DNA from: an uncultured delta proteobacterium
GTDB taxonomy: Bacteria > Desulfobacterota > BSN033 > UBA1163
Assembly (NCBI GenBank): GCA_963731045.1
Contig: CAVSVC010000010.1
Span: 74,630-138,629, forward strand
Reading direction: 5' to 3'
Length of the DNA: 64,000 bases
Shown here in pieces: positions 5,320 to 59,177 of the stretch. The position numbers were made by a program, and so were the translations under genes. How positions within the stretch are numbered: position 1 is the first letter of the stretch; every line of letters starts with the position of its first letter. The notes beneath the pieces are model-generated. The model was given only the letters and a program-made list of their open reading frames with translations. It was not told where the DNA came from and made no database searches.

Positions 5320-5432
5320 AGAACCATGGAATAGTGGAACGATGGAATGTTGGGCAAGAAAATGGAATTCAATTCTGAAAAAGAAACTTGAATCATGATT
5401 CCATCAATCCAATATTCCATTCTTCCAGTGTC
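5320..5432. repeat. Intercistronic TGGAAT/ATTCCA repeat cluster between the binding-protein gene and livH
   Basis: There are four forward TGGAA(T/C) copies (5325-5375) and at least two inverted ATTCCA copies (5398-5422). Together they can fold into long imperfect hairpins on the operon transcript. Confidence 0.45.
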
Positions 5433-6761
5433 TTACTTGCTCCATCCCGGGAAAGGATAGACGGCGTCCGCCGTTTTCATCCCTTTGGGATAAACGATCT
5501 GTTTGATCATCCCTTCAACGGCCACCTGGCTGGGAAGCAGCTTCTTCCCTTCGGCCTTCTGCCACTGGATCAGGTTTGTCGCCTTGCCCACCTGCAACCC
5601 CGAATCCGGACTTCCGAGGGGAGCGATTTCGTACTCGCCGAAGACGGTCGTGGTCTTAATCGAGTACAATTTGTCCCGGATCGCCTTCTTATCTTCCGCA
5701 GAACCGACTTCTTTCATGGCCCGCTCCAGGATCTGTCCCGCTGCGAAACCCGCCGCGGCGTGATAAGAAGGTTCCCCTTTGAACTCCTTCAGATACGCCC
5801 TGTAGAAATCCTGGTTCCCCGGTGTCTTGCTGAAGGGCTCCCAAAAGGTCTCTCCAGTCACATACAGGCCATCGAGTTTCAAGGACTTTGCAAAATCGCC
5901 GATGGCCGGTCCCACGAGGAATCCGAACAGTTTCGGAGTCGCGTTGATGGCCTTCGCCGCTTTGGTCACGCCGATCGAATCGGGAAGATAGCCTCCCCCC
6001 ATAAGGATATCGGGTTTCTGAGACCAGGCTTTCGACACAATGGGTTCCCAGTCCGCCGTCTCTTTCGGATAGGCCTCATCCAGGACAACCTGCATCCCCA
6101 TCTCTTTCGCCTTTGCAACGAGGGGTTTCATGGCCCCGATGGGAAACGCCGTGTCCGAATAGATGAAGGCCACGCTCTTCGCGCCCTTCTCCTTTCCGAT
6201 ATCGAGGCACCCGTAGAGGTTCTTCCAGGCCAGAGGCAGGATACCGACAAACCACTCCCTCTTCTTTCCTTCCCAGATGACAGGCGCATTGGCCAGGGGC
6301 GTAATGATCGGCATCTGGTATTGCTCCGCCAGCGGAGCAATGGCATTCGACGCACCGCTTCCGTACGGGCCGAGGATCAAATCCACCTTATCCGAGACCA
6401 CGAGCTTCCGAACCAGCTTCACCGCCTCGCTGGGATCGCTCTTGTCGTCATAGACCACGAATTCCACCGGACGTCCAAGGAGCCCGGGACCCGAACAGCC
6501 CAGTTTCTCAACCTCTCCGAAGGTGCAACCCTTTTCATTGATAATCTTCCCCCAGAGTTTGTATCCCCCCACTTCCAGCTCGCCTTCCCTGGCCATGGCG
6601 CCGGTCAGGGAGATGGCGACGCCGATCTTGATGGGCGGTTTGGTCTGGGCAAAGACCCTCTTCCTCGCAAGGCTTCCCATGCCGAGGACCGCAGCCCCGA
6701 GCACGCTCTTCTTCATGAAATCCCTTCGGCTCCACTCTCTCTTCGCGCTCTTTTCCCTCAT
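5433..6761 (-). CDS. Periplasmic branched-chain amino-acid (LivJ/K family) binding protein with a Tat-type signal
   Basis: ORF 5433..6761. Twin-arginine motif SRRDFMKKSVLGAAVLGMGSLA, then IKIGVAISLTGAMA, which is typical of type I periplasmic binding proteins. It heads the liv operon. Confidence 0.88.
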   Translation of the reverse strand: MREKSAKREWSRRDFMKKSVLGAAVLGMGSLARKRVFAQTKPPIKIGVAISLTGAMAREGELEVGGYKLWGKIINEKGCTFGEVEKLGCSGPGLLGRPVEFVVYDDKSDPSEAVKLVRKLVVSDKVDLILGPYGSGASNAIAPLAEQYQMPIITPLANAPVIWEGKKREWFVGILPLAWKNLYGCLDIGKEKGAKSVAFIYSDTAFPIGAMKPLVAKAKEMGMQVVLDEAYPKETADWEPIVSKAWSQKPDILMGGGYLPDSIGVTKAAKAINATPKLFGFLVGPAIGDFAKSLKLDGLYVTGETFWEPFSKTPGNQDFYRAYLKEFKGEPSYHAAAGFAAGQILERAMKEVGSAEDKKAIRDKLYSIKTTTVFGEYEIAPLGSPDSGLQVGKATNLIQWQKAEGKKLLPSQVAVEGMIKQIVYPKGMKTADAVYPFPGWSK

Positions 6762-50408: not shown

Positions 50409-50488
50409 CCCGATTCTTGTGGAATTGGGTTTGTTCGGTCAAGGGTTAAAAAAATCTTTTCACAAATCCGTTTTTCCCCATTTTTCTC

Positions 50489-50543
50489 TTGACAAGACAC
50501 GACATGTTGGTGTAAAAACTTTAAAGCATACTAAATGTAGCCC
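50489..50543 (+). promoter_or_regulatory. nrdD promoter with tandem NrdR boxes
   Basis: TTGACA(50489-50494), then box ACACGACATGTTGGTG (50497-50512), then TAAAAA (50513-50518). A second box ATACTAAATGTAGCCC lies at 50528-50543, 31 bp further on. Its core CTAAATGT is shared with the distal nrdJ box. Confidence 0.5.
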
Positions 50544-50592
50544 CTCTTTAAGGCTTTCCTCTCTGATAAACTTCGAGACAAGGTGGAAAAAA

Positions 50593-52734
50593 ATGTCAAA
50601 AGTGATTGAACTGCAAGGCGAACGTATCGGATTTAGGGAAGAAGTCGAGACCACGGACATGGCCCTTTTTGTCCGGACATCCGATGAATCCATGCACGGC
50701 TGGGACCGTCAGAGGATCGTCGATGCCCTGGTCCGGGAGACCTATGTCGATTTCGATACGGCAAAAGAGATCGCACAGGAAGTGGAGGAGCTCATTGCCA
50801 CGTCCAAGATCAGAATGGTCACAGCCCCTCTGATCCGCGAGCTGGTGGACGCAAAACTGATTGAACGAGGTCTTGAGCAAGCCCGCAGGATGCACACCCG
50901 TCTCGGCATGCCTCTCTTTGATGTGGACCAGCTCATCCTCCATCCGAATAAGGAGAATGCGAATGTCCCCCACGGGCCCGAGGCGACCAATCTGACGCTC
51001 GCAGAAAGGATCAAAAAGGAGTATGCCCTCCTCTCCGTCTTTTCCCAGGAAGTGGCCGACGCCCATATGCGCGGCGACCTTCACCTGCACGACCTGGGGT
51101 TTATAGATCGGCCTTACTGCAGCGGCCAATCGCTTGAATATATCAAGAAGTTCGGACTGAGTCTTCCCAATTCGATTGCCATGGCCAAACCCGCCAAACA
51201 CTCGGAGGTTCTGCTTGCCCACATGGTGAAGTTTGCCGCGGCCCTTCAGAGCCACTTCGCAGGCGCCATCGGGTGGGACTCCGTCAATCTCTTCTTCGCT
51301 CCCTACATCGTCGGCATGTCCAACCGCGATGTGGAACAGCTGGCCCAGATGATGATCTTTGAGTTTTCCCAGCAGGCCGTCGCCAGGGGAGGCCAGGCCA
51401 TCTTTACGGATCTCAACCTCTACTGGGAGGTTCCAAAACATTTTGAGAAGGTCCCGGCCATCGGCCCGGGAGGGGAGTTGACGGGCAAGACGTACGGGGA
51501 ATACGAAAAAGAGGCCCAGCGTTTTGCGTGGTCCCTCTTCGACGTTTACATGCACGGAGATGGTTCCGGAAGACCCTTTTTCTTCCCGAAGCCGATGGTC
51601 CACATCACGGAGAAATTTTTCAAAACCCCCGGCCATATGGATTTCCTCAACCATATCTGTGACATCTCCGCCGAGAAGGGAAACACCTATTTCGTCTTTG
51701 ACCGCGGTGAGACGGCCAAGATCTCTGAGTGCTGCCGTCTCAGCTTCAAGCTGGATCAATCGGACCTGGAGGATGCAAAGCAGCCGTGGAAGATGCGCTA
51801 CTGTGCTCTTCAGAATGTCACCCTCAATCTGCCCCGGATCGCCTACCTTTCTAAAAAGGAGGATACCCTGCTTTTTTCAAAAATCGCCGAGTTTCTGGAG
51901 GTGGCGGTCAAAGCCCATCTCGAGAAGAAACTCTTCATCGAGAAACTTCTCTCTCTGGGAGAGAAGGGCCCTCTCGCGCTCCTCGCCATGGATCGGGATG
52001 GCTCTCCTTATCTCCGGATGCACCGGGCCAGTTTTCTCATCGGGATGGTGGGACTCAATGAACTCGTCCAGATCCACACGGGCCAGGAGCTGCACCAGTC
52101 CAGAGACGCCTTCAAGTTCGGCCTCAAGGTGATCGCTCACATGAAACTCCTGATTGACAAATTCAGCCAGCGCTATGGAATGAGATTCGTTCTGGAACAG
52201 ACCCCTGCGGAATCCACGGCCTACCGTTTTGCCAAACTGGATCTGACCTATCATTCGCCTGCCTCCGGCCACATCGTCAAGGGAGATATTTCAAGAGGAG
52301 AAGTCTATTACACCAATTCCACCTATCTGAACAACTCTGCCGTTCTCAACCCCATTGAACGGGTCAGGCAGGAAGGACTCTTTCATCCCCTGATTGAAGC
52401 CGGATCCCTCACACACATCTGGCTGGGGGAATCCAGACCTTCCAGCGCCTCTCTGTCGAACTTCGTCATCAAGACCTTTCAATCCACTCAGAATGACCAG
52501 ATCGCCTTCTCCCCCGAATTTACAACCTGCAACCTCTGCCACAGAACGAGCCGGGGCCTCCGGACGAAGTGCGACTACTGCGGCTCGGAGGATGTGGACG
52601 GCATTACCCGCATCACCGGCTATTTCACCAAGGTGTCGAGTTGGAACAAGGGCAAACTGGGAGAACTGCGGAACCGGTATCGAAATCAGGCCTTCTTGGA
52701 ACCGGGAGAAGGAAAAGGGGTAGTGAACAATTAG
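50593..52734 (+). CDS. nrdD: Anaerobic (class III) ribonucleoside-triphosphate reductase
   Basis: ORF 50419..52734, start ATG 50593 (SD AAGGTGG). C-terminal Zn site CNLC...CDYCG and glycyl-radical motif RITGY. Confidence 0.9.
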   Translation: MSKVIELQGERIGFREEVETTDMALFVRTSDESMHGWDRQRIVDALVRETYVDFDTAKEIAQEVEELIATSKIRMVTAPLIRELVDAKLIERGLEQARRMHTRLGMPLFDVDQLILHPNKENANVPHGPEATNLTLAERIKKEYALLSVFSQEVADAHMRGDLHLHDLGFIDRPYCSGQSLEYIKKFGLSLPNSIAMAKPAKHSEVLLAHMVKFAAALQSHFAGAIGWDSVNLFFAPYIVGMSNRDVEQLAQMMIFEFSQQAVARGGQAIFTDLNLYWEVPKHFEKVPAIGPGGELTGKTYGEYEKEAQRFAWSLFDVYMHGDGSGRPFFFPKPMVHITEKFFKTPGHMDFLNHICDISAEKGNTYFVFDRGETAKISECCRLSFKLDQSDLEDAKQPWKMRYCALQNVTLNLPRIAYLSKKEDTLLFSKIAEFLEVAVKAHLEKKLFIEKLLSLGEKGPLALLAMDRDGSPYLRMHRASFLIGMVGLNELVQIHTGQELHQSRDAFKFGLKVIAHMKLLIDKFSQRYGMRFVLEQTPAESTAYRFAKLDLTYHSPASGHIVKGDISRGEVYYTNSTYLNNSAVLNPIERVRQEGLFHPLIEAGSLTHIWLGESRPSSASLSNFVIKTFQSTQNDQIAFSPEFTTCNLCHRTSRGLRTKCDYCGSEDVDGITRITGYFTKVSSWNKGKLGELRNRYRNQAFLEPGEGKGVVNN

Positions 52735-52752
52735 CAATGAGCAATGACGGAA

Positions 52753-52863
52753 ACGGTAAGGGTGACGAAGCCCGTATCGTCGGTCGGTTAGGTCATGGGT
52801 CTTTAACACTTGCTGTAACCAGCGGACTCTTGACGAAACGGGCTTCTCAGCCGTAACCTTCAC
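52753..52863. repeat. Approximately 110-bp long-palindrome (MITE/REP-like) element, copy A
   Basis: ACGGTAAGGGTGACGAAGCCCGTATCGTCGGTCGGTTAGGTC....GACGAAACGGGCTTCTCAGCCGTAACCTTCAC. The inner 15-bp arms are GAAGCCCGTATCGTC and GACGAAACGGGCTTC. It is homologous to 59220-59323. Confidence 0.6.
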
Positions 52864-52893
52864 AATGACCATCGAGTTTTTTCAGGAGGGAAC

Positions 52894-53160
52894 ATGGGCC
52901 TGGTCAAGATTTTCACAAAAGCAAAATGTCCTAAGTGTCCGGCAGCCAAGCAAATTTTGGCGGAATTGAAGAAGGAAGGTGTTTCTGTCCATCATTACGA
53001 TCTGGATACCATCGACGGCCTCGCAGAAGCCTCCTTTTACGGGATCCTTTCCACCCCCTCCATCCTGATTGAAGATGGGGAGGAAAAGGAAATTGCAGGC
53101 TGGAGAGGGGCCACCCCGACGCTCCAGGAGGTGAAGCAGCATCTCCAGGCCATCCGATGA
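52894..53160 (+). CDS. Glutaredoxin/NrdH-like thioredoxin-fold protein (CPKC)
   Basis: ORF 52894..53160, SD AGGAGGG. KIFTKAKCPKCPAAKQIL. It lies between nrdD and nrdG. Confidence 0.8.
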   Translation: MGLVKIFTKAKCPKCPAAKQILAELKKEGVSVHHYDLDTIDGLAEASFYGILSTPSILIEDGEEKEIAGWRGATPTLQEVKQHLQAIR

Positions 53161-53325
53161 AGCGTCAGGCGCCTCAAACCTTCAATCTCAAACGAACTCC
53201 GATTTTCGAACCCCAGGGGAAGCCGCGTATTGCCTGTAAAATATGCCAAATAATCGCTCAGTGAAGGTTTGGAAGCACACCCAACCGCGTAAGGAAACGC
53301 AATGTTAAGGTGAACTGTCGCAGCG

Positions 53326-54006
53326 ATGATTGATATCAAAGGATTTCTTGAAACCTCCTTCGTAGACTGGCCCGGAAAGATTTGTTCCGTCCTTTTTCTG
53401 CCTTACTGCAATCTTCGGTGCCCATACTGCCACAACGCCGCCCTCGTTTCTCATCCGGAGCAGCTTGCTTCGATTCCCATCCGGGATATCCTGGACCGTC
53501 TTTCATCCTTTCAGGGGTGGATTGACGGCATCTGCCTCACTGGAGGAGAACCCACCCTACACACCCGTCTTCCCCTGCTGATCAAGGAGATCAGGCGAAA
53601 AGGGTTTCTGGTCAAGCTGGACACAAACGGGACGCATCCGGAACTTCTGGAGAAGTTGATCCGTGAAGGGCAGCTCGATTATGTCGCCATGGATGTGAAA
53701 GCTCCGCTCGATCCTCTGCGGTACAGGCGTGCCGCGGGCGTTCCCGTGGATCTCGATCTTATTCGGGAATCGATTGAAATCATCAAGCGAGCGGGGGTCG
53801 AATACCACTTTCGACTTACCGTTGTCCCGGGAATCCACAAAAAGGAAGACATCCAGATGCTGGCGGACCAGCTGAGGGCGGGGAAGCGGCTCGTTCTCCA
53901 GAACTTCAATCCGGAGAATCCTCTCGATCCCAAGCTCAAAGGCCTTTTTCCATTCGACCTCAGCATGCTGAGGGAAGTGGAGAGGGAAATCCAGGCGATG
54001 ATCTGA
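53326..54006 (+). CDS. nrdG: Anaerobic RNR activating radical SAM enzyme
   Basis: ORF 53326..54006. CNLRCPYCHN and GICLTGGEP. Confidence 0.9.
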   Translation: MIDIKGFLETSFVDWPGKICSVLFLPYCNLRCPYCHNAALVSHPEQLASIPIRDILDRLSSFQGWIDGICLTGGEPTLHTRLPLLIKEIRRKGFLVKLDTNGTHPELLEKLIREGQLDYVAMDVKAPLDPLRYRRAAGVPVDLDLIRESIEIIKRAGVEYHFRLTVVPGIHKKEDIQMLADQLRAGKRLVLQNFNPENPLDPKLKGLFPFDLSMLREVEREIQAMI

Positions 54007-55598: not shown

Positions 55599-56474
55599 TT
55601 GGCCATGGAGAAGGACCGGGGGGAACGATACGCTGCAAGCCTGGAACGCACCGTCAAGAACGACTATCTCTATCTCAAAACCGCCCTGGATGATTTCCAG
55701 GAGATGTGCCGGATGGTGACTCCCGAGAGGAATGTTCCCCAGGGGATCATCGTCGACATCCGTGAAATGTATAAAGAAATTCGAGGCAGGCTGACCGAGA
55801 TCAAGGCCATTCAGCAACTCATTCAAGGCAAGTATCGCCAATACTACCACCGGGACAGCGTGAGAGACAAGGAGATCCTGGAGTTCGGCTTTGTTGCAAA
55901 GAACTGCTATTCCAAATTCGAATATGTCCTGAAGCAGAAACTGGCTCAGGGGAGAATGAAGACCGGGCTCAAAGAACCCGGCCCCAAGGAGCCGGTCTCC
56001 CGCGAGAAGGACGACGACCTTTCTCCCTGCTGGTTCCATTCCGGAGAAAATCAAATCGGCCTCGCCAAGAATCTCCGCACACTCACAGAACTGGATTATG
56101 AGCATGCTTCCGGATCGGAAAATGTGGAGAGACGCGATCTCGGCACCGAAAGAAGCCTTACCCTCTTCCTCCTCAAGGGAGATCCTTCCACTCTGGACGA
56201 CCTACTGTCCCGGATTCGCTTCAGAGAGCATGATATCATCGAGAGGACCCGGCCGGATGAGGTTCGAGGAACGTTGGCTCATCTGAAGAAGGTTCTTCCT
56301 TCCGAGATCGAGGGCATCTTCCAGCGCCTGGTGAAGGACAGAGGGTTTTCGCATTTGAGATGTCTGCTCCTTCCCGTTCACGCCCAACAGGATCTCGAAA
56401 GCGACCGGTTCAGCAGGGTGGAGTCTCTTCTTGCCGAAATGAAAGAAGGAGAAGTAAAGATCCTTTCGATTTGA
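55599..56474 (+). CDS. Hypothetical soluble protein, 291 aa, no recognised domain
   Basis: ORF 55599..56474. The K/E/R-rich composition is coding-like. The longer antisense ORF 55029..56105 overlaps mutT and looks like a shadow. Confidence 0.55.
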   Translation: MAMEKDRGERYAASLERTVKNDYLYLKTALDDFQEMCRMVTPERNVPQGIIVDIREMYKEIRGRLTEIKAIQQLIQGKYRQYYHRDSVRDKEILEFGFVAKNCYSKFEYVLKQKLAQGRMKTGLKEPGPKEPVSREKDDDLSPCWFHSGENQIGLAKNLRTLTELDYEHASGSENVERRDLGTERSLTLFLLKGDPSTLDDLLSRIRFREHDIIERTRPDEVRGTLAHLKKVLPSEIEGIFQRLVKDRGFSHLRCLLLPVHAQQDLESDRFSRVESLLAEMKEGEVKILSI

Positions 56475-56595
56475 CACTCCTCCCCGTACGCGTTATAAGA
56501 AACCTTAGATCCGTTTTTCACGGTTTCACCCTTCCCGTCACCGGCCGAATGGTCGATAAACCATCTGTTCCTATCGAATTCAAAACGGGATTTCC

Positions 56596-57849
56596 ATGAT
56601 TCCTCCTCTCAAGGACTTCTACTTTTTCAGTGAATTTCTGAACCGCAAGGTCTTCAATCCCGCCGGCGAGAGGGTAGGCAGGGTCGTGGACCTGGTGGCC
56701 GAGAGGGGACAGGCTTATCCGATGATGATCGGTCTCGTCTTTCGACCGGGAAGAGGACAAAAACGGCTCTATCTTCCGTGGGGAGAAATCAGGCGTTTCG
56801 AGCCTGAAATCACGACGTCCGGAGAGGATCCGGGGGCCCTTCAGACCCGCTTCCCGGAGAAAGAGAGTGTGCTTCTCCGGGAAGAGGTCATGGATAAACA
56901 GATCGTAGACACCTACGGTGCAAAGGTGGTCCGGGTCAATGACCTCCACTTTCTCCGGATCGACTCACACCTCCGGTTGATCCATGTGGATGTGGGTTTT
57001 CGCGGCCTGATGAGAAGGGTGGGATGGGAGAAGGGGGTGGATAAACTGCTTCAACTGCTCTTCTCCTACGATCTTCCCAACCAGTTCATCTCGTGGAAAT
57101 ATGTTCAACTCCTTTCCGGCTCCGACCTCCTGCACCTCAGCGTCTCCCAGAAGAAACTCTCCCATCTTCATCCTGCAGACCTGGCCGATATCCTCGAGGA
57201 TCTCGGCGGCCGGGAGCGGTCCGCCGTCTTTCACGCACTGGACACGGAGACGGCGGCCGAGGCCCTGGAGGAGATCGATCCGAAAATACAGAAGGCCCTC
57301 ATCGAGACCATCCCCGTGGAAAGGGCCTCGGACATTATGGAAGAGATGTCTCCCAGCGATGCGGCCGACCTGCTGGCGGACCTTCCGGAAGAACGAGCGG
57401 AAGAGATCCTGGAGGAGATGGAGGAAGAAAGGGCCGAAGACCTGAGAGAGCTTCTTGTTCACCCGGATGAAACCGCGGGAGGATTGATGACGACGGCTTA
57501 CCTCAGCCTGAACCGCGAGGTGACCGTGGAGACGGCCATGTCAAAGTTGAAAGCGGAAGCCCCGAATCTCGATATTGTCGACTACATCTATGTCATCGAT
57601 GAAGAAGAGGTTCTCCAGGGAGTCGCCAGCATTCGGGACCTTTTCACGGCGCCGTCCCACCAACGCCTCTCACAGATCCAGACGTCGAGATTGGTCAGCG
57701 TCAGGCTCGACGAACATCAGAATGAGGTGGTGGAGGAATTCGTGAAGTACGGGTTCAAGGCCCTGCCCGTGGTGGATGACGCGAACCGTCTCAAGGGGGT
57801 CATCAGTTTTCAGAGCATCTTGCAGGTTCTGGCTCCGGAGGCAGGGTAG
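56596..57849 (+). CDS. Soluble PRC-barrel / MgtE-N / CBS-pair protein (MgtE cytosolic module without a membrane domain)
   Basis: ORF 56596..57849. MgtE_N acidic helices (LHPADLADILEDL...SPSDAADLLADLPEERAEEILEEM), then two CBS motifs. No TM segments. Confidence 0.85.
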   Translation: MIPPLKDFYFFSEFLNRKVFNPAGERVGRVVDLVAERGQAYPMMIGLVFRPGRGQKRLYLPWGEIRRFEPEITTSGEDPGALQTRFPEKESVLLREEVMDKQIVDTYGAKVVRVNDLHFLRIDSHLRLIHVDVGFRGLMRRVGWEKGVDKLLQLLFSYDLPNQFISWKYVQLLSGSDLLHLSVSQKKLSHLHPADLADILEDLGGRERSAVFHALDTETAAEALEEIDPKIQKALIETIPVERASDIMEEMSPSDAADLLADLPEERAEEILEEMEEERAEDLRELLVHPDETAGGLMTTAYLSLNREVTVETAMSKLKAEAPNLDIVDYIYVIDEEEVLQGVASIRDLFTAPSHQRLSQIQTSRLVSVRLDEHQNEVVEEFVKYGFKALPVVDDANRLKGVISFQSILQVLAPEAG

Positions 57850-57920
57850 GGAAACGTGCCCGTGATTCGTCTTCGTGTCAGGAAGAACGGACACTGAAAC
57901 AGGACTCTTCAATTCTTCTT

Positions 57921-59177
57921 ATGGCAGACTACGGAAAGTATCTCTTAAGGTCAAAACAATCCCTCTGGAAGACTGTGGGGCTCTTCTTCATCCTCATGGG
58001 ACCGGGGATCATTACGTCCAATGTGGACAATGATGCGGGCGGGATTACGACTTACTCGCTGGCAGGCGCGCAATACGGGCTGAAGCTGATCTGGTCCATG
58101 ATTCCCATCATGATCGCCCTGATTGTGATCCAGGAGATGTGCGCCAGAATGGGCGTTGTGACTGGAAAGGGATTGTCCGACCTCATTCGTGAGAAATTCG
58201 GGGCCAAGATCACCATGTATCTGATGCTCGGCATGTTCCTCACAAATATGGGCAACGTCGTCTCCGAGTTTGCGGGGATCGCCGCCGGGATGGAGATCTT
58301 CGGGGTCAGTAAGTTTATTTCCGTTCCCATAAGCGCTTTTCTGGTCTGGTGGATGGTTGTGAAGGGAACGTATCGCTTCGTTGAGAAGGTCTTCCTCGGG
58401 GCGTGTGTCTTCTATCTCTCCTACATTATCACAGGAATCATCGTGAGACCGGACTGGAACCATGTGCTCGATCAATTCCTTCATCCCCAGCTGAGCCTGA
58501 CCCCCCCTGAGATGACCATGGTCATCGGCCTTGTGGGAACGACCATCGCTCCCTGGATGCAGTTCTATCTTCAGGCCTCCATCGTAGAGAAGGGGATCAA
58601 AATCGAGGAGTATAAATTCGCACGATTCGATGTGGTCATGGGATCGGTCTTCGTCCATATCGTGGCGTTCTTCATCATCCTGGTCTGCGCAGAAACTCTC
58701 TTCAAAAGCGGGGTCCGAATTGAAACAGCCAAGGACGCCGCCCTTTCTCTCGAGCCCCTGGCCGGGAGGTACTGCACCTACCTCTTCGCCTTCGGACTGG
58801 TGAACGCCTCCCTTTTCGCGGCCTCGATCCTCCCCCTGTCGACGACTTACCTGATCTGCGAAGGATTGGGATGGGAAGCCGGGATTGACAAAAAATTTGC
58901 CGAGGCGCCTCAGTTCTATGGATTCTATTCCCTGATGATCTTTTTGGGGGCGGGGATCATTCTCTATCCGGACGTTCCGCTCATTCCGATTATGTATCTC
59001 TCCCAGGTCATCAACGGAATGGTCCTCCCGTGTATCCTCGTCTTCATGCTCCTGCTCATCAATGACAAGAAACTGATGATGGACCACACCAACGGCCCCG
59101 TCTTCAATACCGTCGCCTGGGTCACCGCGTTAATCTTGATCGGCTTCACCCTTCTCTTGCTGATCCAGTCTCTGTGA
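57921..59177 (+). CDS. Nramp-family transporter with NRMT-type (Mg2+-type) binding-site substitutions
   Basis: ORF 57921..59177. A gap-free alignment to MntH puts DAGG where DPGN sits in TM1 (NVDNDAGGITTY). It puts TTIAPW where ATIMPH sits in TM6. Confidence 0.8.
   Translation: MADYGKYLLRSKQSLWKTVGLFFILMGPGIITSNVDNDAGGITTYSLAGAQYGLKLIWSMIPIMIALIVIQEMCARMGVVTGKGLSDLIREKFGAKITMYLMLGMFLTNMGNVVSEFAGIAAGMEIFGVSKFISVPISAFLVWWMVVKGTYRFVEKVFLGACVFYLSYIITGIIVRPDWNHVLDQFLHPQLSLTPPEMTMVIGLVGTTIAPWMQFYLQASIVEKGIKIEEYKFARFDVVMGSVFVHIVAFFIILVCAETLFKSGVRIETAKDAALSLEPLAGRYCTYLFAFGLVNASLFAASILPLSTTYLICEGLGWEAGIDKKFAEAPQFYGFYSLMIFLGAGIILYPDVPLIPIMYLSQVINGMVLPCILVFMLLLINDKKLMMDHTNGPVFNTVAWVTALILIGFTLLLLIQSL

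What the first reader, a model, noticed from the sequence alone, without database searches (positions are those of the whole stretch)
56596..59177. Split design: an MgtE-type cytosolic Mg2+-sensing module is encoded as a separate protein next to an NRMT-type Nramp
A gap-free alignment to E. coli MntH shows DPGN replaced by DAGG in TM1. In TM6, A-x-x-M-P-H is replaced by T-x-x-A-P-W. As I recall, loss of the soft Met ligand and the Asn is the signature of the Nramp-related magnesium transporter clade (characterised members come from Clostridium and Eggerthella). Seventy-one bp upstream, a 417-aa soluble protein carries PRC-barrel repeats plus the MgtE N-domain and CBS pair. In MgtE these form the Mg2+-sensing gate, but no membrane domain is present here. 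My inference is that a trans-acting MgtE-like sensor gates or regulates the NRMT. I am not aware that such a pairing has been analysed. I looked for an M-box riboswitch at 56475-56595 and did not recognise one.
Basis: partly seen in the sequence, partly recalled or inferred. Interest (0 to 1): 0.65.

Follow-up and report, generated by a model that had tools for sequence, protein, structure and literature searches.

The report
NRMT transporter with MgtE-like partner
This is a two-gene operon encoding a magnesium-type Nramp transporter and a soluble protein built like the Mg2+-sensing cytoplasmic part of the MgtE channel; the pairing is real and almost universal, but it was already reported in 2014 and its function is still untested.

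Summary
ORF 56596-57849 (417 aa) is a soluble PRC / PRC-like / MgtE_N / CBS-pair protein. ORF 57921-59177 (418 aa), 71 bp downstream, is an Nramp-family transporter. It carries every published binding-site signature of EleNRMT (D38, G41, T207, A210, W212) and matches EleNRMT at E=1e-106, against about 1e-22 for Mn-type Nramps. No M-box is present.

The gene pairing is strong in both directions. In 76 of 77 assessable genomes from at least 12 phyla, an NRMT-type gene lies next to the partner gene. In 74 of 76 assessable NRMT-anchored metagenome loci, the partner lies immediately upstream. These include the native locus of EleNRMT itself.

Shin et al. 2014 (PMC4072509) described this "ancillary" MgtE-like gene next to most NrmT genes. 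They proposed cytoplasmic feedback regulation and saw no effect in one co-expression test.

Additions from this work:
- The same cytosolic module also occurs fused to an MgtE pore, and some of those fused genes sit next to an NRMT too.
- The window's clade has lost the Mg4 and Mg5 ligands of MgtE but keeps the Mg6, Mg7 and ATP-site residues.
- NRMTs carry a clade-specific cytoplasmic loop.

The regulatory mechanism remains an inference. Interest is modest.

The parts
56471..56499 (+). Sigma-70-like promoter element, TTGACA-17 nt-TATAAG, overlapping the stop codon of the upstream ORF
   Evidence: Read directly from the sequence. The TTTGACAC..GTTATAAA element is conserved in the window and 5 of 8 close relatives (L005, L006, L007, L010, L012). 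The scan tool missed it because its rule requires T at the last position of the second hexamer. Function is inferred.
56500..56595 (+). Leader upstream of the partner gene; no riboswitch
   Evidence: No Rfam match above chance. The sequence is not conserved among close relatives. The fold is no more stable than shuffles, z 0.12.
56596..57849 (+). Partner gene: 417-aa soluble PRC / PRC-like / MgtE_N / CBS-pair protein (an MgtE cytosolic module with no plug helix and no pore)
   Evidence: The AlphaFold2 model has pLDDT 92. Foldseek matches the MgtE cytosolic domain 2yvy at E 1.7e-21, rmsd 1.7 A, TM-score 0.87 normalised to the target. No hydrophobic segment.
56617..56817 (+). PRC-barrel domain 1 (residues 8-74)
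   Evidence: Pfam PF05239 at 29.3 bits, cutoff 21.2. Beta strands in the model.
56866..57111 (+). Divergent PRC-like beta domain 2 with a helical insert (residues 91-172). It holds the near-invariant residues D100, Q102, D105, N115, D116, D132, R140, R141 and W167.
   Evidence: hhalign against domain 1: probability 87%, E 4e-6. Not hit by Pfam. Conservation. The same residues are conserved in MgtE-fused relatives.
57148..57465 (+). MgtE_N helical domain (residues 185-290). It keeps E222 (TtMgtE E59, site Mg7) and D258 (D95, site Mg6). S254 replaces D91 (site Mg4).
   Evidence: Site definitions come from PMC5882242.
57466..57831 (+). CBS pair (residues 291-412). ATP-site residues Y330, R347, D348 and F387 are kept. 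S407 replaces D247 (Mg4). G386 and Q410 replace D226 and D250 (Mg5).
   Evidence: The ATP site is defined in PMC5529423.
57850..57920 (+). 71-bp intergenic spacer with no terminator-like site
   Evidence: The median spacer in 74 same-strand homologous pairs is about 46 bp.
57921..59177 (+). NRMT-type Nramp (SLC11-related) transporter, 418 aa
   Evidence: Pfam Nramp E 3e-101. EleNRMT 7qia E 1.3e-106 versus DraNramp about 1e-22. 43.5% identity to EleNRMT and 23% to E. coli MntH.
58032..58043 (+). TM1 metal-site motif D38-A-G-G41 (DPGN in Mn-type Nramps)
58539..58556 (+). TM6 motif T207-T-I-A210-P-W212 (A-T-I-M-P-H in Mn-type Nramps)
58866..58916 (+). NRMT-specific insertion in the predicted cytoplasmic loop between helices 8 and 9 (residues 316-332, GWEAGIDKKFAEAPQF). 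Candidate docking site for the partner; this is an inference.
   Evidence: GWE..EAP.F is at least 80% conserved in 148 NRMTs, and 11 of its columns are gaps in E. coli MntH and DraNramp. Sidedness is inferred from the known Nramp topology (N-terminus inside).

Best explanation
The region is a two-gene operon with its own promoter, from an uncultured Thermodesulfobacteriota bacterium (Syntrophorhabdus-like). The downstream gene encodes an NRMT-clade Nramp. By homology to EleNRMT this is a proton-uncoupled importer of Mg2+ (and Mn2+). The upstream gene encodes a soluble homologue of the whole cytoplasmic part of a PRC-extended MgtE channel: two PRC-type beta domains, the MgtE N domain and a CBS pair. 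It stops exactly where the MgtE plug helix and pore would begin.

The most likely role of the soluble protein is as a non-covalent regulatory subunit of the NRMT. It would read intracellular Mg2+ and/or adenine nucleotide through the retained acidic and CBS sites, and restrain an otherwise uncoupled uptake system as negative feedback.

Shown: the domain and clade identities, the operon-like arrangement, and the near-universal two-way gene linkage.
Inferred: physical binding, the ligand, and the sign of regulation.

My component confidences are: NRMT clade 0.95; MgtE-derived cytosolic partner functionally tied to the NRMT 0.85; direct ligand-dependent regulation of transport 0.45.
For: - Transporter identity. 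It is EleNRMT-like: E 1.3e-106 to EleNRMT versus about 1e-22 to Mn-type Nramps. All published signature residues match, namely D38, G41, E116, T207, A210, W212 and Q362 (features from PMC8806188).
- Partner identity. Pfam MgtE_N plus CBS, with TIGR00400 matched only over model positions 23-255 of 450. phmmer to TtMgtE gives E 5e-36 and the match ends at the end of CBS2. The AF2 model has pLDDT 92 and superposes on Mg2+-bound 2yvy at rmsd 1.7 A.
- Forward linkage. Of 80 species-representative genome loci chosen only by similarity to the partner, 76 have an Nramp next door. 74 of these are on the same strand, with a median gap of about 46 bp. Three of the other four run off the contig. All 74 that are at least 300 aa score closer to EleNRMT than to MntH or DraNramp, and none has DPGN or MPH.
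- Reverse linkage. Of 76 assessable NRMT-anchored metagenome loci, 74 have the partner immediately upstream. These include L085 and L086, which are 97% identical to EleNRMT.
- Co-regulation. An M-box riboswitch precedes the whole partner-NRMT pair in L120 and L137, so the pair is co-regulated by Mg2+ in some lineages.
- Module conservation. The same module occurs fused to an MgtE pore, and its most conserved residues are the same in both contexts.
- No alternative pore. No MgtE pore ORF occurs in 160 loci or in the 64-kb window, so the module is retained without its own pore.
- Sensor residues. The Mg6 (D258, invariant in 80 diverse members) and Mg7 (E222) ligands and the ATP-site residues Y330, R347, D348 and F387 are kept.
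- Need for a brake. EleNRMT is not proton-coupled (PMC8806188), which makes a cytoplasmic brake plausible. This last point is an inference.
Against: - No interaction or regulation has been shown anywhere.
- Shin et al. 2014 found that the NrmT proteins of C. acetobutylicum work without the partner. Co-expressing the A. capsulatum partner did not improve Mg2+ rescue. That assay could not have detected an inhibitor.
- EleNRMT transports in proteoliposomes on its own (PMC8806188).
- In the window's clade both Mg4 ligands are Ser (S254 and S407, in 116 and 107 of 120 close relatives). Mg5 D226 is Gly in all 120, and D250 is Gln in the window itself.
- The Mg2 and Mg3 sites of MgtE need the plug helix and pore, which are absent.
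- The conserved PRC2 residues are not specific to the free-standing form, so no NRMT-specific interface could be identified on the partner.
- I could not run a complex prediction.
- The A. capsulatum homologue behaved mainly as a Mn2+ transporter, so Mg2+ as the main substrate here is not certain.
Confidence: 0.5

Rival explanations
1. The partner senses energy status or a nucleotide rather than Mg2+. Its CBS pair binds ATP, ADP or another adenosine ligand and couples NRMT activity to energy status. Mg2+ binding is secondary or lost in this clade.
For: - Four of the five side-chain contacts of the TtMgtE ATP site are kept (Y330, R347, D348, F387; site from PMC5529423).
- The Mg4 and Mg5 ligands are lost in the window's clade.
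- Foldseek also finds many nucleotide-binding CBS pairs, such as AcuB, OpuCA with c-di-AMP, and MJ0100.
Against: - N203, which contacts the adenine, is Thr here and is variable in the family. F227 is Leu in 45 of 80 diverse members.
- D258 (Mg6) is invariant, and most of the family keeps the Mg4 and Mg7 acidic residues.
- M-box control in some relatives ties the operon to Mg2+.
- In MgtE, ATP tunes Mg2+ sensing rather than replacing it.
Confidence: 0.2
2. The partner is not a gate. It is a metallochaperone or buffer, or an assembly or stability factor, for the NRMT. It would hand over or sequester incoming cation, or help the transporter fold.
For: - Shin et al. 2014 named metal chaperone activity as an alternative.
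- The protein is strongly acidic, with 74 D+E against 47 K+R. It has an invariant cluster of Asp residues in PRC2 (D100, D105, D116, D132).
- The gene linkage fits any obligate accessory role.
Against: - NRMTs express and transport without it in B. subtilis and in liposomes (PMC8806188).
- Cytosolic Mg2+ is at millimolar levels, so a chaperone is not obviously needed.
- The module is the regulatory domain of a channel in its fused form.
Confidence: 0.1
3. There is co-regulation but no physical partnership. The partner is a remnant or independent descendant of an MgtE gene that was co-transcribed with NRMT as a second Mg2+ uptake system. It now acts elsewhere, for example on a pore-only MgtE encoded at another locus or on an unrelated target.
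For: - Full-length PRC-MgtE channels sit next to NRMT genes in L165 and L168, so the ancestral state may have been two transporters in one operon.
- Pore-only MgtE proteins exist in nature (bioRxiv 10.1101/2025.05.26.656215).
Against: - A useless remnant would decay. Instead the pore-less form is intact, well conserved and next to an NRMT in 97-99% of assessable loci across at least 12 phyla.
- No MgtE pore ORF occurs within 4 kb in 160 loci or anywhere in the 64-kb window.
- A target elsewhere would not explain such tight adjacency.
Confidence: 0.1
4. Substrate rival, compatible with any of the above. In this organism the transporter mainly imports Mn2+ (or another transition metal) rather than Mg2+, as reported for the A. 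capsulatum homologue that also has a partner and lacks an M-box.
For: - The A. capsulatum NrmT-like protein fully rescued a Mn2+ transport mutant but rescued the Mg2+ mutant only at millimolar Mg2+.
- EleNRMT transports Mn2+ as well as Mg2+.
- There is no M-box here or in 17 relatives near the window's clade.
Against: - The metal-site residues are identical to EleNRMT, including T207. The equivalent residue T224 is needed for Mg2+ transport.
- The soft Met ligand that favours transition metals is absent.
- The partner derives from a Mg2+ channel.
Confidence: 0.25

Closest known systems
NrmT/NRMT operons with the MgtE-like 'ancillary' gene (Shin et al. 2014, PLoS Genet, PMC4072509: C. acetobutylicum Ca_c0685 and Ca_c3329; A. 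capsulatum Acp2976/Acp2977)
   Same: - The gene order is the same (MgtE-cytoplasmic-domain gene, then the Nramp-related transporter), and so is the transporter clade.
- Like the A. capsulatum pair, this one has no M-box.
- The regulatory hypothesis is the one those authors proposed.
   Different: - This is a different lineage (Thermodesulfobacteriota).
- The partner is one gene, not split in two as in Ca_c0685.
[quoted passage not shown]
- In this clade the Mg4 and Mg5 ligands are replaced.
EleNRMT from Eggerthella lenta (PDB 7QIA; Ramanadane et al. 2022, PMC8806188)
   Same: - 43.5% identity over 400 residues.
- Identical metal-site signature (D, G, T, A).
- Trp in place of the first helix-6b His, with the helix-3 Glu and helix-10 Gln kept.
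- The native E. lenta-like loci L085 and L086 also carry the partner gene immediately upstream.
   Different: - EleNRMT was characterised alone. In term searches of that paper ('CBS', 'operon' and 'accessory' had no hits; the 'MgtE' and 'regulat' hits concern other things) I found no mention of the partner.
- At the second helix-6b His position, EleNRMT has Asn and the window has Leu.
MgtE Mg2+ channel (Thermus thermophilus; PDB 2YVX, 2ZY9, 2YVY)
   Same: - The N domain and CBS pair are homologous (E 5e-36) and superpose at rmsd 1.7 A on the Mg2+-bound form.
- The E59, D95 and ATP-site equivalents are kept.
   Different: - There is no plug helix and no pore domain, so this is not a channel.
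- About 180 extra N-terminal residues form two PRC-type domains.
- The D91/D247 (Mg4) and D226/D250 (Mg5) ligands are replaced in the window protein.
- Any output must go to a separate protein of unrelated LeuT fold.
PRC-extended full-length MgtE channels (uncharacterised; for example P0278, P0300, P0281)
   Same: - They are homologous over the whole length of the partner (residues about 9-416, 37-41% identity), including both PRC-type domains and the same near-invariant residues.
- Two of the five examined are also followed by an NRMT-type gene.
   Different: - They carry the MgtE pore domain PF01769, which the window protein lacks.
- Three of the five are not next to an Nramp.
Canonical Mn2+/H+ Nramps (E. 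coli MntH, DraNramp)
   Same: They share the Pfam family PF01566, the LeuT-type fold, the conserved TM1 Asp and the helix-10 Gln.
   Different: - 23-26% identity.
- DPGN and A-x-x-M-P-H are replaced.
- The proton-pathway His is replaced.
- There is an 11-residue insertion in loop 8-9.

Membership tests
NRMT clade of the Nramp/SLC11-related family (PF01566) | Nramp-family fold or sequence (PF01566) | tested here: met
   Pfam E 3e-101, covering model positions 1-356 of 357.
NRMT clade of the Nramp/SLC11-related family (PF01566) | TM1 site: the Asp is kept and the Asn is replaced by Gly (EleNRMT D55, G58) | tested here: met
   D38 and G41. The motif is DAGG, against DPGN in E. coli MntH and DraNramp. 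Feature taken from PMC8806188.
NRMT clade of the Nramp/SLC11-related family (PF01566) | TM6 site: Ala to Thr (T224) and Met to Ala (A227) | tested here: met
   T207 and A210.
NRMT clade of the Nramp/SLC11-related family (PF01566) | Proton-pathway residues lost (the helix-6b histidines replaced) | tested here: met
   W212 stands at the first His position. Leu or Gln (depending on the alignment) stands at the second. The helix-3 and helix-9 pathway residues were not examined individually.
NRMT clade of the Nramp/SLC11-related family (PF01566) | Closer in sequence to characterised NRMTs than to Mn-type Nramps | tested here: met
   360 bits to EleNRMT against at most 83 bits to any Mn-type Nramp structure. 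43.5% identity against 23-26%. I made no formal maximum-likelihood tree.
NRMT clade of the Nramp/SLC11-related family (PF01566) | Transports Mg2+ without proton coupling | not testable with these tools
   Needs transport assays. The A. capsulatum relative favoured Mn2+.
NrmT plus MgtE-like ancillary gene operon (Shin et al. 2014) | A gene for an MgtE cytoplasmic-domain homologue lies immediately next to the NrmT gene on the same strand | tested here: met
   71-bp gap, same strand. The same arrangement holds in 74 of 77 and 74 of 76 assessable relatives.
NrmT plus MgtE-like ancillary gene operon (Shin et al. 2014) | An M-box riboswitch upstream (present only in a subset, so not obligatory) | tested here: not met
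   None in the window or in 17 nearer relatives. Present in L120 and L137. Shin et al. also describe members without it.
MgtE Mg2+ channel (TIGR00400 / PF01769) | MgtE_N domain plus CBS pair | tested here: met
MgtE Mg2+ channel (TIGR00400 / PF01769) | Plug helix and five-helix pore domain (PF01769) | tested here: not met
   No PF01769 hit. TIGR00400 scores 166.6 bits, below its cutoff of 232.75, and is matched only over positions 23-255 of 450. The protein ends at the end of CBS2. No hydrophobic segment. It is therefore not an MgtE channel.
MgtE Mg2+ channel (TIGR00400 / PF01769) | Acidic ligands of the cytoplasmic Mg2+ sites Mg4-Mg7 (E59, D91, D95, D226, D247, D250) | tested here: inconclusive
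   - E222 and D258 are kept.
- D91 is S254, D247 is S407, D226 is G386 and D250 is Q410 in the window.
- Across 80 diverse family members the positions are acidic in 82%, 81%, 100%, 23%, 76% and 74% respectively.
- Whether Mg2+ binds cannot be judged from sequence.
PRC-barrel domain (PF05239) | A match to the PRC-barrel profile | tested here: met
   - Residues 7-66 score 29.3 bits against a cutoff of 21.2.
- The second domain is not matched by Pfam.
- It is related to the first domain by hhalign at E 4e-6.

The most novel reading that the evidence does not exclude
The free-standing PRC-MgtE_N-CBS protein is an obligate regulatory subunit that arose when a PRC-extended MgtE channel gene lying upstream of an NRMT gene lost its pore. 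In this reading, a ready-made Mg2+/ATP sensor cassette was handed from a channel to an unrelated LeuT-fold carrier. It now gates that carrier in trans, perhaps by docking on the NRMT-specific cytoplasmic loop 8-9. This would also mean that the only structurally and kinetically characterised NRMT (EleNRMT) has so far been studied without its native regulator.
Probability: 0.3. Interest if true: 0.6.

Novelty: already known. Interest (0 to 1): 0.3.

Why it matters
NRMTs are the fourth class of bacterial Mg2+ importers and appear to be uncoupled uniporters, so how cells stop them from overloading the cytoplasm is an open question. The MgtE-like partner is the obvious candidate for that brake. It has sat untested since it was noticed in 2014.

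This analysis shows that the linkage is close to obligatory in both directions across many phyla. It applies to EleNRMT, for which purified protein, structures and liposome assays already exist. The one published negative test could not have detected a negative regulator. Together, these points make the question directly testable with existing reagents.

For genome annotation, the practical points are two:
- The transporter should not be called an Mn2+/Fe2+ MntH.
- The partner should not be called a 'magnesium transporter'.

As a discovery the finding itself is not new.

Tried and rejected
1. Single-sequence AlphaFold2 of the partner gave pLDDT 44 and was unusable. I replaced it with an 80-sequence alignment model.
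2. The 80-sequence alignment A1 was too diverse for the genome scan (error). I used the 14-sequence alignment A2 instead.
3. My first mapping of the TtMgtE Mg2+ sites used mafft --keeplength. That dropped insertions and shifted the numbering in the CBS half. I corrected it, and only the corrected values are used.
4. Idea: the exceptionally conserved PRC2 residues mark an NRMT-specific docking surface. Rejected, because the same residues are equally conserved in the MgtE-fused relatives.
5. A hidden riboswitch or structured leader at 56475-56595. Rejected: no Rfam hit, no conservation, z 0.12.
6. A split MgtE whose pore is encoded nearby. Rejected: no MgtE pore ORF in 160 loci or in the window.
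7. Transcript evidence for co-transcription. No run holds more than 12% of the sampled words, all are environmental DNA, and none is RNA. I laid no reads.
9. The upstream 291-aa ORF as a third component. It is conserved only in the closest clade, so I do not treat it as part of the module.
11. A later literature search found no paper in the held library after 2014 that addresses the partner. Subscription journals are not covered.


Full report
**What is there.**

The first protein has a PRC-barrel domain (7-66), an MgtE_N domain (191-292, E 2e-27) and a CBS pair running to residue 412. It has no MgtE pore domain. NCBIfam's full-length MgtE model is matched only over positions 23-255 of 450 and scores below its cutoff. 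No hydrophobic stretch is present.

The second protein is a full-length Nramp-family member (E 3e-101) with about ten hydrophobic segments.

The flanking genes are nrdD, a glutaredoxin-like gene, nrdG, a PAS-GGDEF gene, a NUDIX gene and an unknown ORF upstream, and panE, panB and an M50 peptidase downstream. None is related to Mg2+. The closest genomes are uncultured Syntrophorhabdus and Thermodesulfobacteriota MAGs, at 74-75% identity for the partner. Synteny from nrdD to the Nramp gene is conserved in one such MAG.

**The transporter is NRMT-type.** Against all PDB sequences the best match is EleNRMT (7QIA) at E 1.3e-106 and 360 bits. The Mn-type Nramps reach only about 1e-22 and at most 83 bits. 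Identity is 43.5% to EleNRMT and 23% to E. coli MntH.

I fetched E. coli mntH (L084) and aligned it. DPGN becomes DAGG, and A-T-I-M-P-H becomes T-T-I-A-P-W, letter for letter as in EleNRMT. Every residue that Ramanadane et al. 2022 single out has its counterpart here: D38, G41, E116, T207, A210, W212 and Q362, matching their Asp55, Gly58, Glu133, Thr224, Ala227, Trp229 and Gln379. The alignment is not strictly gap-free, but that is immaterial.

**The partner is an MgtE cytosolic module with an N-terminal extension.** With an 80-sequence alignment, AlphaFold2 gives a confident model (pLDDT 92.2). It has the following parts:
- a beta domain at residues 8-74;
- a second beta domain with a helical insert at 91-172;
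- a short disordered linker;
- the helical MgtE N domain at 185-287;
- a CBS pair at 294-412.

Foldseek places the last 230 residues on the Mg2+-bound MgtE cytosolic domain 2YVY (E 1.7e-21, rmsd 1.7 A, TM-score 0.87 normalised to the target).

The sequence match to TtMgtE ends at the last residues of CBS2. The plug helix that couples the sensor to the pore in MgtE is therefore absent.

Pfam does not recognise the second beta domain. Profile-profile comparison relates it to the first (hhalign 87%, E 4e-6), so 'PRC repeats' is reasonable but the second copy is divergent.

**Sensor residues.** I used the published site assignments: Mg4 D91/D247, Mg5 D226/D250, Mg6 D95 and Mg7 E59 (PMC5882242). 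The family as a whole keeps acidic residues at E59 (82%), D91 (81%), D95 (100%), D247 (76%) and D250 (74%), but not at D226 (23%).

The window's own clade differs. Both Mg4 ligands are Ser (S254 in 116 of 120 close relatives, S407 in 107 of 120). D226 is Gly in all 120. D250 is Gln in the window, although it is Asp or Glu in 112 of 120.

The ATP contacts of MgtE (Y170, R187, D188, F227; PMC5529423) are kept as Y330, R347, D348 and F387. N203 is Thr.

So the protein could still respond to Mg2+ and/or adenine nucleotide. It is not a straight copy of the MgtE sensor.

**Co-occurrence, forward direction.** I scanned one genome per species with an alignment of the partner. The best 80 loci span Thermodesulfobacteriota, Zixibacteria, Ignavibacteria, Nitrospirota, Aminicenantes, Acidobacteria, Binatia, Chloroflexota, Dormibacterota, Actinomycetota, Armatimonadetes, Margulisbacteria and others.
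- 76 of the 80 have an Nramp homologue next to the partner gene. 74 are on the same strand and downstream, with a median spacer of about 46 bp.
- Three of the remaining four end within 250 bp of the partner's stop codon.
- One (L069) has 1.3 kb downstream without an Nramp.
- All 74 neighbours of at least 300 aa score closer to EleNRMT than to MntH or DraNramp.
- The motifs are DAGG (rarely DAAG, DASG, DATG or DAGA) and TTI[AT]P[WY]. DPGN or MPH never occurs.

**Co-occurrence, reverse direction.** I scanned metagenome contigs with an NRMT alignment led by EleNRMT, which returned 80 loci. The partner is immediately upstream in 74 of 76 loci that have enough upstream sequence. The exceptions are L109 and L121. 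Many of these loci are near-duplicates from gut metagenomes, so the number of independent observations is smaller than 74. L085 and L086 are 97% identical to EleNRMT and carry the partner. In term searches of the EleNRMT structure paper ('CBS', 'operon' and 'accessory' gave no hits, and the 'MgtE' and 'regulat' hits concern other matters) I found no mention of it.

**Regulation of the operon.** A TTGACA-17-TATAAG element lies at 56471-56499 and is conserved in five of eight close relatives. The 96-nt stretch after it is neither conserved nor unusually stable. There is no M-box in the window or in 17 nearer relatives. An M-box does precede the whole partner-NRMT pair in L120 and L137, in line with Shin et al. 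2014.

**Prior knowledge.** Shin et al. [quoted passage not shown] They note that it is split in two in C. acetobutylicum. They tested the A. capsulatum pair in B. subtilis and saw no further rescue. [quoted passage not shown]

I found no later paper in the held library that follows it up.

- About a tenth of the 50%-identity representatives closest to the partner are roughly 600 aa long. These are PRC-MgtE_N-CBS-MgtE(pore) proteins, that is, complete channels with the same N-terminal extension.
- The near-invariant residues of the partner (D100, Q102, D105, N115, D116, D132, R140, R141, W167, D258 and others) are just as conserved in those fused forms. They belong to the module, not to an NRMT-specific interface.
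- Two of the five fused channels I looked up (L165, L168) are themselves followed within about 25 bp by an NRMT-type gene with NDAGG and GTT[IV]APWM. The other three are not.
- In a neighbour-joining tree of the N+CBS part rooted on TtMgtE, most fused forms branch near the root and the window's protein is deeply nested. This fits an origin of the free partner by pore loss from a PRC-MgtE gene already sitting next to an NRMT. The tree has no support values and a single outgroup, so I treat this only as a lead.
- NRMTs share a conserved 11-residue insertion (GWE..EAP.F) that Mn-type Nramps lack. It lies between helices 8 and 9, which by Nramp topology is a cytoplasmic loop. It is a candidate contact site; this is an inference.

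**Mechanism.** The tight two-way linkage, the retention of an intact and conserved pore-less module, and its descent from a channel's regulatory domain make a functional partnership with the NRMT very likely. Direct, ligand-dependent negative regulation is the best single hypothesis. EleNRMT is not proton-coupled, so uptake driven by membrane potential needs a brake.

The 2014 co-expression test looked for better rescue, which an inhibitor would not give. The informative assay is metal hypersensitivity, as used for MgtE sensor mutants.

Against this hypothesis, nothing has been shown experimentally, NRMTs work alone, and this clade has lost two Mg2+ sites and the plug helix. I put direct regulation at about 0.45. 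The rivals are:
- a nucleotide sensor, 0.2;
- a chaperone or buffer, 0.1;
- co-regulation without contact, 0.1.

Separately, there is a 0.25 chance that Mn2+ rather than Mg2+ is the main substrate.

**Verdict.** The clade call and the co-occurrence are strongly supported, and the regulatory inference is plausible but unproven. The claimed novelty is not there. Interest is modest (0.3). Most of it comes from the fact that the open 2014 question is now easy to test with the EleNRMT system.

Noticed in passing
L085 1846-3285 and L086 2455-3894 (partner), next to NRMT ORFs 97% identical to EleNRMT: The native Eggerthella-type locus of the structurally characterised EleNRMT has the PRC-MgtE_N-CBS partner gene immediately upstream. 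In term searches of the structure paper ('CBS', 'operon', 'accessory' absent) I found no mention of it.
   Followed up: partly
L165 1752-3545 and 3552-4802; L168 3001-4806 and 4829-6070: Full-length PRC-MgtE_N-CBS-MgtE(pore) channels are directly followed by NRMT-type Nramp genes. This is a possible intermediate between a stand-alone PRC-MgtE channel and the pore-less partner. Three other fused channels (L166, L167, L169) have no Nramp neighbour.
   Followed up: partly
window 57355-57357 (S254) and 57814-57816 (S407): The two ligands of the MgtE Mg4 site (D91 and D247), which bridge the N and CBS domains, are both Ser in the window and in most of its 120 close relatives. Both are Asp in about 78% of the wider family. 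This looks like a coordinated replacement.
   Followed up: partly
window 55599-56474 (+): A 291-aa ORF with no Pfam or NCBIfam match lies directly upstream of the partner's promoter. It is conserved (E 1e-84 to 1e-99) only in the closest relatives L004-L012 and is absent from the wider set. Function unknown.
   Followed up: partly
window 56471-56499: A near-consensus sigma-70-type promoter (TTGACA-17-TATAAG) overlaps the stop codon of the upstream ORF. It is conserved as TTTGACAC..GTTATAAA in L005, L006, L007, L010 and L012. The promoter scan missed it because of its rule for the last base.
   Followed up: yes
L120 2366-2538 and L137 1979-2147: M-box riboswitches (134 and 145 bits) sit upstream of the partner-NRMT pair in two metagenome loci. 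L120 also has a 6S RNA match just downstream of the NRMT gene at 5378-5557.
   Followed up: no
L096 1326-2177 and 1990-4041: In one low-coverage (1.8x) gut-metagenome contig, the C-terminal half of the partner and the NRMT lie in a single 684-codon stop-to-stop frame. In its relatives L091-L097 the two genes are in the same frame and separated by one stop codon. This is probably a sequencing error, but it would be a natural fusion if real.
   Followed up: no
L098-L108 (58% identity to EleNRMT), partner frames about 618 codons: In this gut clade the stop-to-stop frame holding the partner is about 200 codons longer at its 5' end than elsewhere. This may be an extra N-terminal domain or only non-coding read-through.
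   Followed up: no
L055, L059, L060, L065, L067, L070, L073, L075, L076, L078, L080-L083: NRMT neighbours in Nitrospirota, Chloroflexota and Dormibacterota have TTITP[WY] instead of TTIAPW, that is, Thr instead of Ala at the former Met position. Some have DATG or DASG in TM1. This is a possible sub-clade with a different metal site.
   Followed up: no
L069 (Armatimonadetes), L121, L109: These are the few assessable exceptions to the pairing. L069 has a partner with 1.3 kb of downstream sequence and no Nramp. L121 and L109 have NRMT genes with 2.4 kb and 0.6 kb of upstream sequence and no partner.
   Followed up: no
L036 5262-6561: The NRMT gene next to the partner is broken into two overlapping frames, and the partner frame is truncated at 349 codons. 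This is either a decaying pair or an assembly error.
   Followed up: no
window 50419-54006: An anaerobic ribonucleotide reductase cluster (nrdD, a small glutaredoxin/thioredoxin-like ORF, and the radical-SAM activase nrdG) is followed by a PAS-GGDEF and a NUDIX gene. It is syntenic with a Thermodesulfobacteriota MAG and consistent with an anaerobe.
   Followed up: no
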